A stretch of DNA of 64,000 nucleotides, taken from positions 3,844,001 through 3,908,000 of the forward strand of contig CM022670.1 of assembly GCA_012295275.1 (NCBI GenBank), written 5' to 3'. The DNA is from Chrysomallon squamiferum (Eukaryota > Animalia > Mollusca). Positions 599-40,025 of the stretch are shown here, piece after piece. Made by a program: the position numbers and the translations under genes. The notes under the pieces are model-generated. The model searched no databases, was not told the origin of the DNA, and was given only the letters and a program-made list of their open reading frames with translations. The first letter of the stretch is position 1; every line of letters begins with the position of its first letter.

Positions 599-1458
599 TC
601 ACTGTGGAAGAAGACAACAGGGAAGGTCCAGTCTCACAGACTTAGAAGAAGGTGGGGTGCTGAAGAGCACAGAACTCCAGCAAGCACCTGGAACCACCGA
701 GCTCTTGGCTGGATCGGCCACAGAATGACAGGAAAGGTCAAGAAGTCCGTTCTTGAGATCTCTCTGCGAGATCTTCAGCTCCAGGTCACTTCGACACACG
801 ACAGACGTGTTCTGCAGGCCAAGACTAGCGTCAGAGTCTGGAGAGTCTGGGTGAGTGATGGGACTTCTAGAAAGATCTAAGGGTGTGTCTTGAGACTTGT
901 CCATCTCATCACAGCAGGAAGGTGGCTCCACTTTGAGGACTGACAGGGGCAGAGGTGGCAAAGTCTTTGGTAAAATGTCTGAGAAGTGTGATGTGACCAT
1001 CGACACGTTCCCACTGAGAATCTGAGCTGACATCAGCGCGTGGGACTGTCCCGACATCGGCAGAGGAGTGGGCAACTGGAAGATGTTGTTCTGCAGAGGA
1101 ACGAAGTGCGAGTTCTGCGGGTTTAACACGAGGCCCTGTGGACCGATGTTTATCACACTGGCCAGCGATGATGATGATGACAACGATGATGATGATGACA
1201 AAGTTGAAGCTGGGGTGTGAGAAGGAGCTGTTTTTCTAACCCTCGATGTGAAGCAGTCGTTGTCATGGCGGTAGAAGTGTCCGTGCGTACGTACGTGTTT
1301 GCGCAGTGAGCTGGGGTCTGTGTAGCGCTTGCTGCATCCTGGCATTTTACACAGGTACGGCTTCTCCTCCTGGTGTGTGCGCACGTGCTTGAACCGGTCG
1401 CTCGAGTTGGAATACGCTTTGTGACAACCCTCGAACGGACAAACGTACGGTTTCTCTC
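599..1458 (-). CDS. GLIS2: GLIS2 terminal coding exon (ZF4, ZF5, Ser-rich C-terminus with PLDLS motif)
   Basis: Acceptor ttcatttcag|GAGAGAAA. Reads (G)[60 protein letters not shown]... to TGA at 599-601. Confidence 0.95.
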
Positions 1459-1961
1459 CTGAAATGAATAAGCATGGTAAGTTGTAAACACAGATAATGT
1501 GTGTGTGTGTCTGTGTGTCTCTGTGTGTGTGTGTGTATACATCTTCTGAATGAATGAATGAATGGACAAATAAAGGAATGAATAAATGAATATTTAATAT
1601 ATTTGAATTTTATACAGCCCCTATTAATTAATTTTGTTTTCATATTAATGGTTTTTTCTAACTCTGCACATTTGTTGTGAATAAATTTGCACTTGTATAA
1701 ATTTATAAATATTTCATATAACCATAATTTCAATTTTAGACCTGGGTGTTATTCCCATTTTAAATACATAATTTTAATTGAATTTCATTTTAACATTTCA
1801 GATAGGTAATTTACTGACACACTTGTAATTCATTTCATATATCTAAAAACATTCCCTATACCTTTCTTTTTTCTTTTTTTTCATATTTCAGACATATGTA
1901 ATATCATATAATGGTTCATTTACCTGATTTTTTTCATTTTTACCTGTAACTTTGACCTTAC

Positions 1962-2080
1962 CTGTATGTGACCTTTTGTGTATCTTGAGATTTTCCAGCC
2001 TTGAGAAACATTTTCCACAAATATTGCACCTGTGAGGTTTCTCATTTGTGTGTGTCCGAACATGAATCAGCATCTTATAC
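1962..2080 (-). CDS. GLIS2: GLIS2 exon (end of ZF2, ZF3)
   Basis: Acceptor aattgcag|G, donor ACAG|gtaagg. Encodes (R)[39 protein letters not shown](G); 119 nt, phases fit both neighbours. Confidence 0.95.
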
Positions 2081-2358
2081 CTGCAATTAACAACAACCGT
2101 GTTTACAATCAGAGCTGCTAGCAGGAGGGGTTTAATCACTCTTAATGATGTAATTTTCAAGGTAAACCTTCATTTTCAACAAAACAATTATAATAATAAT
2201 AATAATAATAATAAAAATAAGAACAACAACAACAACAATAGAAAATGATAACCAACACCAAAAATCAAAACAACAACAATCAATCAAACATTAAAAATAA
2301 AAAAAAAATTATTAAAAAAAATAATAATAAAACAACACATTTCAAATTCCTCCCTTAC

Positions 2359-2567
2359 CTGGCATTAAATCCTTTTCCCAGCCTGGGACATCCTGTCCAC
2401 TTGCACTGGTAGTCAATGTCTGGCCTCTCCACCTTCACGTGGTGGTCGTTCACATGGACAACGAGGTCATCGATGTTGCCGAAGGTCTGACCACACTGTT
2501 TCCACAGACACTCGTAACACTGAGATTTGTTTGTTACACAGTTCTTGGCTGAATCTTCTGCCAAAAT
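2359..2567 (-). CDS. GLIS2: GLIS2 exon (ZF1, start of ZF2)
   Basis: Acceptor ttcatttcag|ATT, donor CCAG|gtaagg. Encodes ILAED...YECLWKQCGQTFGNIDDLVVHVNDHHVKVERPDIDYQCKWTGCPRLGKGFNA(R), with the tandem CW motifs typical of GLI/GLIS/ZIC ZF1-ZF2. Confidence 0.94.
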
Positions 2568-38100: not shown

Positions 38101-39103
38101 TTATTTATTTATTTGTTTTACTTATTTTATTTTTTTTAATCCTTTACTTGTGTAAAAAAGAATAATAAATGAATCACAGTTCCTGAACTGTTTTTTTTTG
38201 TAGGACAAATTCTCCCATACTTAAACATATTTTTCTTCCTTCTTTAATAAACCGGTTTGGTTGGTTCAAAAAAACTACACACACACACCAGCCATTCATT
38301 GCTAAATTCTCAGCATGCCGACCAGCCATTGGTATGGTAATAAAGAATATGTGTGGGAAGCTCACCCATACAGCCAGCTTGTGACCATTCATGCACAGGC
38401 ATGAAACAGCAGGACCCCTTGACAGTTGTGTACCCAGTTCAGCTTTGTCTCACTGCAAACCCAGACATCTTTCTTACTTGTACATACACACACACACACA
38501 CACATTGCCACTGCGTACCAGATACCCAGTTTAGCTCTGTCAGCAGTCTAATCCTAGACCTCTTCATAGCTTCACTGTATGTATATATATATATATATAT
38601 ATATACACATACACATTGCCACTGTTGGTATTTAGGTCAAATGCATTGTCAGCCTTATTCAGTTTTGTTGCGCTACACGTTTGTGTGTGGGCATGTATTT
38701 TACATAAATTAATATATCTCTCTCGTTCTGAATAGCAGGGGGTCTTTTAAAAAAAAAACCAGAAGCAAGACTGGCAGTTCATATATTTTTAAGTATTTTA
38801 TTTATGCTTTGAAAACAAAAAAGAAAAAAAAATGCATCCATAAATTTTTTGCTTTACCTATATGTAGTTTATGAATGCTTTTTTTTTTTTTTTTTTTTTT
38901 CTTCTTTTTTCTTTTTTCCTCTGTAAAGCTGTACTTCATTTCATTTTGACATCATAATTATATTTAATAATATAGACAATTTACAAACTAACCCCTCCTA
39001 AAAAAAACACCACAACAGTTCTGTATATATAAGAGAAACGCATGTTGCATTCTCCTCACTGATCTGTGTGTCACATTGCTAATGGTCTGTAATTGCTCCA
39101 CAG

Positions 39104-39511
39104 GCGGCCATTCTCCAGCAGACATCAGAACATGTCCACAACCTGGAACAAGAGAAGACCAAACTGCTTGCCCAGAACGCACACCTGAAGAACATGCTGA
39201 TGGAGATGGAGCGCGTGCGAGAAGAAACCTTCAGTGGCTCGCCACCTCCAAAGAGGAAGAAACGAGACACGGAGTCGTCGGACGAAGGCATCAGCCTCGG
39301 CAGCTCAATCGACAGCAACGACGAGGCTGCTGAAGAGTTGCAGCGTGAGATGATCGAGCTTCGGCGACAGCTTGATCAGGAACGTTGGCTGAGGATGATG
39401 CTGGAGGAGCGAGCACGGGTGTTGGAGACGCAGCTGTACCCCGAACACCTGCGTCACTTCGCTGCCCACGTGCAGGCGCAGATGAACAAGAAGGAGGATT
39501 CCGTTGTTGTG
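39104..39511 (+). CDS. TFAP4: TFAP4 exon 3 (helix 2, zipper 1, NLS, zipper 2)
   Basis: Acceptor ctccacag|GCG. Reads AAILQQTSEHVHNLEQEKTKLLAQN...PPPKRKKRDTESSDEGIS...LQREMIELRRQLDQERWLRMMLEE...LYPE; donor GTG|gtgagc. Confidence 0.95.
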
Positions 39512-39623
39512 GTGAGCATTTCAAAATATTTTATTTTATTTTGTGAAATCTTCTTATGTTGTTAATTATGTTGTTGTTTAAGATTTATAAAATTTTTATT
39601 ATTATTATTATTATTATTTACAG

Positions 39624-40025
39624 AAGGAACCGTGTGCAAGAGAAGTGTCTGTGTCTGATTCCGAAGAAAAAAATGGCACCTCTGATGCCAATTTACGAAC
39701 ATCAATGTCCCGCAAAAACTTGGAAACAATTGTGGAAGCCATTCGACATTTAGAAGGTGATAGGATTTTATTCGACGAGCGAAAGGCTGACGAGAAGCAG
39801 CCGATTGCTGCCAGTGAGGAGAGTGAAAAAGACAGTAGTGATCACGAGGAGAGCAAGTCGGACAGTTCTGGCCGAGACTCGCCTGTGTGCTACGCCCAGC
39901 TACATTCACTGCCAACTGTTTGTCATAAAACATTCACAGAAAAATACCCAATGCAGAACACTTTGCTGAATCACCCCATTCCACCTCAGTACTACAGACC
40001 AGGAGTGATTGTGCACAAGTCTTGA
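39624..40025 (+). CDS. TFAP4: TFAP4 terminal coding exon (TIV motif)
   Basis: Acceptor tttacag|AAG. Reads KEPCAREVSVSD...SRKNLETIVEAIRHLEGD...RPGVIVHKS to TGA. Confidence 0.92.
   Translation, partial: KEPCAREVSVSDSEEKNGTSDANLRTSMSRKNLETIVEAIRHLEGDRILFDERKADEKQPIAASEESEKDSSDHEESKSDSSGRDSPVCYAQLHSLPTVCHKTFTEKYPMQNTLLNHPIPPQYYRPGVIVHKS

What the first reader, a model, noticed from the sequence alone, without database searches (positions are those of the whole stretch)
599..40025. GLIS2 and TFAP4 head-to-head: apparently ancient conserved gene pair / regulatory block
Seen: GLIS2 (minus) and TFAP4 (plus) are divergent, with no other recognisable gene between them. Established: human TFAP4 and GLIS2 are neighbours in divergent orientation at 16p13.3. 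Inference: if this is an invertebrate genome, the pairing has lasted since the bilaterian ancestor. That would imply shared or interlocked cis-regulation between a cilia/Hedgehog-related zinc-finger factor and a proliferation bHLH factor. I cannot tell whether this pair has already been described.
Basis: partly seen in the sequence, partly recalled or inferred. Interest (0 to 1): 0.8.

Follow-up and report, generated by a model that had tools for sequence, protein, structure and literature searches.

The report
Known pair, ancient AP-4 promoter
In this snail DNA the genes GLIS2 and TFAP4 sit back to back, an old pairing already reported from sponge to human, and the newer point is a short stretch in front of TFAP4 that is shared with a clam and other distant animals and likely lets cell-cycle factors and the AP-4 protein itself control the gene.

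Summary
A GLIS2 orthologue (minus strand; tree 100/100 with vertebrate GLIS2, apart from GLIS1/3) and TFAP4 (plus strand) are divergent, 29 kb apart in coding terms, with no gene found between them. The DNA is molluscan, nearest Haliotis and Gigantopelta. The pair is not new: Gaiti 2017 names Tfap4-Glis2 as deeply conserved in a sponge, taken from Irimia 2012, so it is older than Bilateria. Here 17 of 21 lophotrochozoan species have both genes on one scaffold; two Octopus species have them on different chromosomes.

Not found in my searches of print: six non-coding blocks in the 700 bp before the TFAP4 start codon recur in order in a bivalve and a second lophotrochozoan. The core, an AP-4-type E-box abutting an E2F-type site, recurs exactly at 3 of 80 fetched AP-4 loci, each just before the start codon. 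It likely ties TFAP4 to the cell cycle and to self-feedback. Nothing shows that it also drives GLIS2, whose start site is inferred about 4 kb away, ahead of a roughly 24-kb 5' intron region. The scan's notes hold no earlier finding on this pair.

The parts
599..1458 (-). GLIS2 last exon (fingers 4-5, C-terminus, stop)
   Evidence: RNA and DNA contig pieces
1962..2080 (-). GLIS2 exon (end of finger 2, finger 3)
2359..2567 (-). GLIS2 exon (finger 1, most of finger 2)
3080..3360 (-). GLIS2 N-terminal coding exon
   Evidence: tblastn with Gigantopelta protein E 2.8e-7; RNA contig joined to the next exon
3940..4096 (-). GLIS2 most 5' exon that RNA confirms; two RNA contigs run 113 and 139 letters further, on an upstream exon that was not placed
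   Evidence: table 8, records 15 and 22
6150..6380 (-). candidate upstream GLIS2 exon ending in an in-frame start (four codons) at a strong donor; holds an X-box-type palindrome at 6283-6296
   Evidence: sequence only; upstream boundary approximate; motif label recalled
8750..10050 (.). GC- and CpG-richer island with two GLIS/GLI-type sites (8967-8976, 9006-9013): candidate enhancer or alternative promoter
   Evidence: CpG o/e 0.54 against 0.28 around it; sites; motif label recalled; inferred
11188..11201 (.). second X-box-type site
   Evidence: label recalled
4100..28500 (-). CpG-depleted, repeat-rich stretch, inferred to be the methylated 5' intron region of GLIS2
   Evidence: CpG o/e 0.28 with tandem repeats masked, against 1.04 for 28500-35200
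28583..29100 (-). candidate GLIS2 promoter and first non-coding exon (donor with first intron base at 28582; CpG cluster with an E-box and a GLIS-type site near 28970-29020)
   Evidence: sequence only; no RNA test
32515..32593 (+). conserved block D/D2, about 650 bp before the TFAP4 start codon
   Evidence: 59 of 80 letters with L064, E 2.3e-7; 23 of 26 with L012
32764..32773 (+). conserved block A
   Evidence: same order in L012 and L064; short, found by eye
32823..32842 (+). conserved block B with distal E2F-type site
   Evidence: 19 of 20 with L064, 18 of 19 with L012
33055..33092 (+). conserved block C: AP-4-type E-box (33058-33063), E2F-type site (33064-33072), initiator-like motif (33079-33090)
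   Evidence: L064 34 of 38, E 5.4e-9; L012 32 of 34; L077 19 of 20; L045 17 of 17 inverted
33179..33267 (+). TFAP4 exon 1 coding part (89 nt)
   Evidence: 89 nt also in L056, L064, L069
34141..34155 (.). palindrome in TFAP4 intron 1 (NFI-type), also in L064 intron 1
   Evidence: 15 of 16 letters but E 0.47, weak alone; label recalled
34952..35111 (+). TFAP4 exon 2 (basic region, helix 1, loop)
39104..39511 (+). TFAP4 exon 3 (helix 2, zippers)
39624..40025 (+). TFAP4 exon 4 to stop

Best explanation
GLIS2 and TFAP4 are a real, already reported ancient head-to-head pair, and TFAP4 carries a conserved upstream element that likely works as its own promoter, read by E2F and by AP-4 itself, while GLIS2 likely starts separately about 4 kb away. 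Shown: gene identities, orientation, linkage in other lophotrochozoans, and conservation of the non-coding blocks. Inferred: E2F/DP complexes bind the two E2F-type sites and switch TFAP4 with the cell cycle; AP-4 dimers bind the abutting CAGCTG and feed back on their own gene, probably by competing with or helping E2F at the start site. Inferred, weaker: the pair persists as a regulatory block because two promoters share one unmethylated 6.7-kb zone and enhancers in the long GLIS2 5' introns act across it, so a break between the genes is usually costly; it is not one bidirectional promoter.
For: Pair in print for sponge and human, with enhancer-like marks in a sponge Glis2 intron. 17 of 21 species have both genes on one scaffold; 5 have consecutive accessions or locus tags. 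Six blocks in the same order and at similar distances in window, L012 and L064; best E 5.4e-9 and 2.3e-7, against 0.005 for the best reversed-sequence control and for the best of 20 other 1-kb window stretches. Exact 15-mer in 3 of 80 loci, each about 140-160 bp before the start codon. TTTCCCGC lies 123-155 nt before the start codon in 6 of 8 genomic loci where exon 1 was located, against 19 of 1470 background windows. The window's only two E2F-type octamers are in blocks B and C. Inversion in L045 favours a DNA element over an RNA one. CAGCTG lies in the first 70 nt of 8 of 21 transcript-like clusters, against 35 of 671 background windows. Motif assignments: bioRxiv 10.1101/2025.11.09.687492, PMC3698521. 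CpG o/e 0.28 then 1.04 with the step at about 28.5 kb, beside a strong minus-strand donor.
Against: No binding, reporter or expression data. The GLIS2 start was not placed by RNA; donors at 6149 and 8312 are alternatives. No conserved DNA was found for the GLIS2 side. L049 and L016 lack the full octamer, and L049 is the nearest relative of L045. The short matches in L077 and L045 score E 0.005, the level of the best control, so they rest on position and exact identity. Loci were picked for AP-4 likeness, the pattern was drawn from L064 before it was counted, L056 and L069 are close relatives, and several of the 8 transcript clusters look related. The pair is split in two Octopus species and lies on different scaffolds in two scallops. 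Accessions give no orientation. In L012 the upstream DNA seems to hold the first exon of another plus-strand gene (read by eye).
Confidence: 0.5

Rival explanations
1. The conserved 700-bp element is a shared, two-way promoter: blocks D-B fire GLIS2 leftwards while block C fires TFAP4, so the genes are co-regulated.
For: 5'-5' orientation is the class enriched among conserved pairs. The unmethylated-looking zone is continuous from 28.5 to 35.2 kb. One core is inverted in L045.
Against: The donor scan found no strong minus-strand donor between 28582 and 33100 (narrow patterns). A separate CpG cluster sits at 29 kb. The CpG step, read as the start of a methylated gene body, is at 28.5 kb and not at 32.5 kb.
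Confidence: 0.17
2. The linkage is an unselected remnant in slowly rearranging genomes; each gene has its own regulation and the conserved promoter concerns TFAP4 alone.
For: Split in Octopus sinensis and O. vulgaris, possibly in scallops, and, as recalled, in Drosophila. All conserved DNA found lies at the TFAP4 start. No GLIS2 fingers in any of 80 fetched flanks, though these reach at most 10 kb.
Against: Adjacency in sponge and human and in gastropods, an oyster and an annelid by accession order spans more than 700 million years; Irimia 2012 argue that such persistence exceeds chance (abstract and passages).
Confidence: 0.25
3. GLIS2 starts from a proximal promoter at 6-10 kb, and the CpG-poor 10-28 kb is the body of a separate non-coding transcript from the 29-kb promoter.
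For: Island at 8.7-10.1 kb with higher CpG and GLIS-type sites; donors at 6149 and 8312. A lincRNA, LINC01569, is listed at human 16p13.3.
Against: CpG depletion runs without a clean gap from 4 to 28 kb; the island reaches only 0.54. No RNA evidence either way.
Confidence: 0.08

Closest known systems
TFAP4-GLIS2 microsyntenic unit (Gaiti et al. 2017, PMC5429095, from the pair list of Irimia et al. 2012, PMC3514665)
   Same: Same two genes, adjacent; sponge models Aqu2.1.30486 and 30487. Seen: passages and supplementary file 15 of Gaiti; abstract and passages of Irimia.
   Different: Irimia's tables could not be read, so their species list for this pair, which may include the limpet Lottia, is unseen. 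The passages seen give no orientation, no promoter element and no Octopus split. Gaiti's vertebrate comparison (Abbasi 2007) is about GLI3, not GLIS2.
Regulatory DNA conserved since the Precambrian (Frith and Ni 2023, PMC10735318; 25 segments, including Ptch, Sp5, Nr2f, Tbx2/3 promoters)
   Same: Short promoter blocks of near-perfect factor sites, kept in position and order before a regulatory gene. Seen: part 1 of 5 and a search of its supplement.
   Different: TFAP4 and GLIS2 occur neither in its main text count (TFAP4) nor in its supplement. Their segments had to align with vertebrates; that was not testable here.
Human AP4 regulation: c-MYC through the first intron; AP4 homodimers bind CAGCTG (PMC7914591, PMC3698521, PMC9954515; passages only)
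   Same: Proliferation-linked control of the gene; same binding site for the protein.
   Different: The passages searched mention neither E2F control of the AP4 gene nor AP4 binding its own promoter. The window's intron 1 has no CACGTG.
glis1/3-rfx3-ndc1-hspb11-lrrc42 cluster (Yasuoka et al. 2020, PMC6984359; parts 1-2 of 6 and passages)
   Same: A GLIS gene held in ancient microsynteny.
   Different: Concerns the other GLIS subfamily; TFAP4 is not mentioned; that cluster is intact in octopus.

Membership tests
GLIS2 orthologue group | five C2H2 fingers, the first two of the CWCH2 type | tested here: met
   alignment; Pfam; definition in PMC6984359
GLIS2 orthologue group | groups with vertebrate GLIS2 and not GLIS1/3 | tested here: met
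   100/100 branch of 31 of 39 rows holding all five vertebrate GLIS2 and none of six GLIS1/3 (bootstrap not fully settled); two-residue-shorter finger 3 shared with GLIS2
GLIS2 orthologue group | excluded from GLI and ZIC | tested here: inconclusive
   not in the tree; by score only, the Gigantopelta relative gives 186 bits with GLI and 125 with ZIC3 against about 255 with vertebrate GLIS2, different databases
TFAP4/AP-4 | AP-4 bHLH followed by zipper regions; best relatives named AP-4 | tested here: met
   groups with Haliotis and Patella AP-4, SH-aLRT 93
Conserved ancestral microsyntenic pair (Irimia 2012) | unrelated genes tightly linked in several distant lineages | tested here: met
Conserved ancestral microsyntenic pair, co-regulated type | 5'-5' orientation kept across species | tested here: inconclusive
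   met in the window; accessions give no orientation elsewhere; human orientation recalled
Conserved ancestral microsyntenic pair, co-regulated type | bidirectional promoter, starts under 1 kb apart | tested here: inconclusive
   sequence points to about 4 kb or more; neither start was mapped
Conserved ancestral microsyntenic pair, co-regulated type | correlated expression | not testable with these tools
   only assembled contigs were available
Genomic regulatory block | enhancers for one gene inside the introns of the other | not testable with these tools
   long candidate intron region with non-repetitive islands; enhancer-like marks reported in sponge Glis2; targets unknown
Regulatory DNA conserved across animal phyla | alignable non-coding DNA at the same place relative to orthologous genes | tested here: met
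   gastropod, bivalve (L064, 100 with heterodonts) and unplaced lophotrochozoan L012
Regulatory DNA conserved across animal phyla | shared between protostomes and deuterostomes or cnidarians | tested here: inconclusive
   L077 has the 15-mer and falls outside the lophotrochozoan branch (96) and the arthropod group, but on a long, unsure branch; no vertebrate promoter was available
Regulatory DNA conserved across animal phyla | shown to control expression | not testable with these tools
   needs reporter or chromatin data

The most novel reading that the evidence does not exclude
TFAP4 has kept, since before molluscs split from other animal phyla and possibly since before Bilateria, a promoter core in which an AP-4 self-binding site abuts an E2F site, wiring the gene into the RB-E2F cell-cycle switch with self-feedback; this MYC-independent circuit is the ancestral control of AP-4 and anchors the GLIS2-TFAP4 block.
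Probability: 0.3. Interest if true: 0.62.

Novelty: new member of a known kind. Interest (0 to 1): 0.4.

Why it matters
The gene pair itself adds only another species to a catalogued case. The promoter element matters more: few regulatory sequences can be aligned across animal phyla (25 in Frith and Ni), and this one names its likely readers. AP-4 is studied as a MYC target in cancer; an old E2F-plus-self-feedback input would be a direct, cheap prediction to test in public human and fly chromatin data. The Octopus split gives a natural experiment on whether either gene's expression depends on the linkage.

Tried and rejected
No genome is held for this window, so neighbours beyond it and other GLIS copies were not examined. 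The first GLIS search (fingers 4-5, long proteins only) listed GLIS1/3 and no vertebrate GLIS2 among its best 120; the five-finger search and tree reversed this. tblastn of the GLIS2 fingers on 80 metagenome AP-4 loci: 0 of 80, uninformative because flanks are at most 10 kb. No match of the GLIS2-side DNA (4100-32500) to upstream DNA of five loci. Two X-box-type sites (2 positions; 1 of 300 shuffles reached 2) and three GLIS-type sites (0 of 200 shuffles) were picked after looking, and whole-region shuffles are a lenient null, so they are leads only. Gaps between RefSeq accessions were not taken as separation: Saccostrea echinata shows a gap of 162 where S. cucullata is consecutive. The taxa of L012, L045, L049 and L077 stayed unresolved in two quick trees; the atlas was closed. 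Rfam: nothing. Paper searches; supplements of PMC10735318 and PMC9023564 hold no TFAP4 or GLIS2. One paper on mollusc conserved elements and two motif sources were not held, so X-box, GLIS-site, NFI and initiator labels are recalled.
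Full report
Window. The DNA is 31% GC and rich in simple repeats (17% by TRF). No genome is held. Both proteins point to a gastropod: AP-4 is nearest Haliotis rubra and the finger domain is 93% identical to a Gigantopelta aegis protein.

Genes. TFAP4 is a clean four-exon, 352-aa model on the plus strand, 33179-40025, aligning end to end with mollusc, annelid, nemertean and brachiopod AP-4. The finger gene has five modelled exons on the minus strand, 4096-599. In a 39-row tree it falls on a 100/100 branch with five vertebrate GLIS2 and apart from six GLIS1/3; GLI and ZIC were not included. 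Database names for its relatives (GLIS1-like, GLIS3-like, ZIC3-like, GLI4-like) are mislabels by that tree. RNA contigs from one study join the 3360 and 3940 exon edges, and two run 113 and 139 letters beyond 4096, so at least one more 5' exon exists. The coding regions are 29 kb apart. None of 61 scanned intervening frames reached a Pfam cut-off (62 were listed) and Rfam found nothing.

Already in print. Gaiti et al. 2017 (PMC5429095; passages and file 15 seen) state that the microsynteny of Tfap4 and Glis2 is deeply conserved, list TFAP4-GLIS2 with adjacent sponge models, report enhancer-like marks in a sponge Glis2 intron, and take their pairs from Irimia et al. 2012. Irimia's main text does not name the pair and its supplements could not be read. 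So the pairing predates Bilateria and is catalogued.

Survey. For 21 species both proteins were seen with a scaffold length. In 17 the lengths are identical: four Haliotis, two Patella, Lymnaea, Physella, two Saccostrea, Argopecten, Pecten, Mactra, Mercenaria (whose GLIS2-like row is long-branched), Owenia, Lineus, Lingula. Five of these scaffolds are under 1.2 Mb. Accessions or locus tags are consecutive in five (H. rufescens, H. asinina, P. caerulea, Lymnaea, S. cucullata) and two apart in Owenia. In four species the lengths differ: Octopus sinensis (105.9 and 213.4 Mb), O. vulgaris (119.3 and 225.7 Mb), and the scallops Mizuhopecten and Ylistrum (scaffold-level assemblies). The Octopus split is therefore between chromosomes; the scallop case is a hint that adjacency is lost although the chromosome is shared. 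No arthropod or deuterostome had both proteins looked up. Orientation cannot be read from these data.

Layout between the genes. With tandem repeats masked, CpG observed/expected is 0.28 over 4100-28500, 1.04 over 28500-35200, 0.18 inside TFAP4 intron 2 and 0.95 beyond 43 kb. In invertebrates methylation falls on gene bodies (established knowledge), so 4-28.5 kb is most simply part of a transcribed unit. A strong minus-strand donor lies at 28582 beside a CpG cluster at 29 kb. I infer a GLIS2 start near 29 kb, about 4 kb from TFAP4's; this was not tested by RNA. Other donors at 6149 (after an in-frame start) and 8312 may mark further 5' exons. Two X-box-type and three GLIS-type sites lie in this region; their labels are recalled and they were chosen after looking.

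The conserved element. A scan of metagenome contigs with the bHLH exon returned 80 AP-4 loci in 55 clusters. Unprompted blastn of the window against them gave one non-coding hit, at 33055-33092, in L064, whose AP-4 groups with heterodont bivalves at 100. Closer comparison showed six blocks at -648, -618, -415, -355, -115 and -100 from the start codon, with counterparts at -697, -666, -464, -412, -142, -126 in L012 and -674, -643, -441, -379, -126, -111 in L064. L012 is lophotrochozoan by tree and outside the sampled gastropod and bivalve clades, but unresolved. Best E-values were 5.4e-9 and 2.3e-7 (L064) and 1.9e-8 (L012); the best reversed-sequence control and the best of 20 other window stretches each gave 0.005. 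The core 15-mer CAGCTGTTTCCCGCC occurs in 3 of 80 loci: L012, L045 (inverted) and L077, each about 140-160 bp before the start codon. L077's protein lies outside the lophotrochozoan branch on a long, unsure branch. Of eight genomic loci where exon 1 could be located, six have TTTCCCGC 123-155 nt upstream, including two close arthropod-like loci; L049 keeps only CAGCTG with a variant beside it and L016 a variant E2F-type site. Background is 19 of 1470 windows. CAGCTG lies within the first 70 nt in 8 of 21 transcript-like clusters, against 5% background, so it sits at or just past the start site there; several of those clusters look related.

Mechanism. AP-4 homodimers bind CAGCTG (PMC3698521, passages). 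TTCCCGCC is the motif of E2F1-6, DP and RB, and TTTCCCGCCAAA that of E2F7/8 (bioRxiv 10.1101/2025.11.09.687492, one passage). An AP-4 site touching an E2F site at the start of the AP-4 gene suggests cell-cycle switching with self-feedback; this is inference from motifs and conservation. Three AP4 papers searched by term mention neither input, and Frith and Ni's set does not hold TFAP4. Subscription papers and Irimia's tables were not visible, so absence from print is limited to those searches. All conserved DNA found is on the TFAP4 side, so it explains TFAP4's control and not yet the linkage. My best account of the linkage is a regulatory block with two nearby promoters and GLIS2-intron enhancers (0.5), against unselected retention (0.25), a two-way promoter (0.17) and a proximal GLIS2 promoter with a separate long transcript (0.08).

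Scan notes. No earlier finding names either gene or resembles these sequences. One unreviewed note describes a parallel case, a YY1 self-binding cluster beside a catalogued pair; I did not test it and had my lead before seeing it.

Verdict. The TFAP4 promoter element appears to be a new member of the small class of regulatory DNA alignable across distant animals, with untested function. Overall interest 0.4.

Noticed in passing
Octopus sinensis and O. vulgaris records: TFAP4 and GLIS2 lie on different chromosomes, so the sponge-to-human pair is broken in octopuses; no mention found in the supplements of PMC9023564.
   Followed up: partly
Mizuhopecten and Ylistrum records: The two genes are on different megabase scaffolds in both scallops, though on one chromosome in Pecten and Argopecten; adjacency may be lost in scallops.
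   Followed up: partly
window 4094-4096 and 6150-6161, minus strand: Bivalve GLIS2 begins at the position of the first codon of the 4096 exon, which here is not a start codon; the start is either four codons in a candidate upstream exon or a later ATG matching Gigantopelta.
   Followed up: partly
window 6283-6296 and 11188-11201: Two near-perfect X-box-type palindromes upstream of the GLIS2 coding exons, a possible RFX (ciliary programme) input; three papers hold GLIS2, X-box and RFX together, none read.
   Followed up: partly
window 34141-34155 and 34375-34389: Two NFI-type palindromes in TFAP4 intron 1; the first has a counterpart in L064.
   Followed up: partly
window 31251-31590: CpG-rich 340-bp insert with short terminal inverted repeats and an internal duplication, probably a small non-autonomous transposon, between the two inferred promoters (read by eye).
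   Followed up: no
window 5126-5721: 158-nt inverted repeat, 87% complementary, arms 280 nt apart.
   Followed up: no
window 43000-64000: 21 kb without a recognised gene, CpG not depleted, with many short non-repetitive GC-richer islands; may be the regulatory desert of a neighbouring gene.
   Followed up: no
L012 600-780: Apparent first exon of another plus-strand gene with a signal-peptide-like start about 3 kb before AP-4, so GLIS2 may not be the direct neighbour in that animal.
   Followed up: no
PMC5429095, Figure 7 text: The vertebrate precedent cited for Glis2 intronic enhancers is a GLI3 paper.
   Followed up: yes
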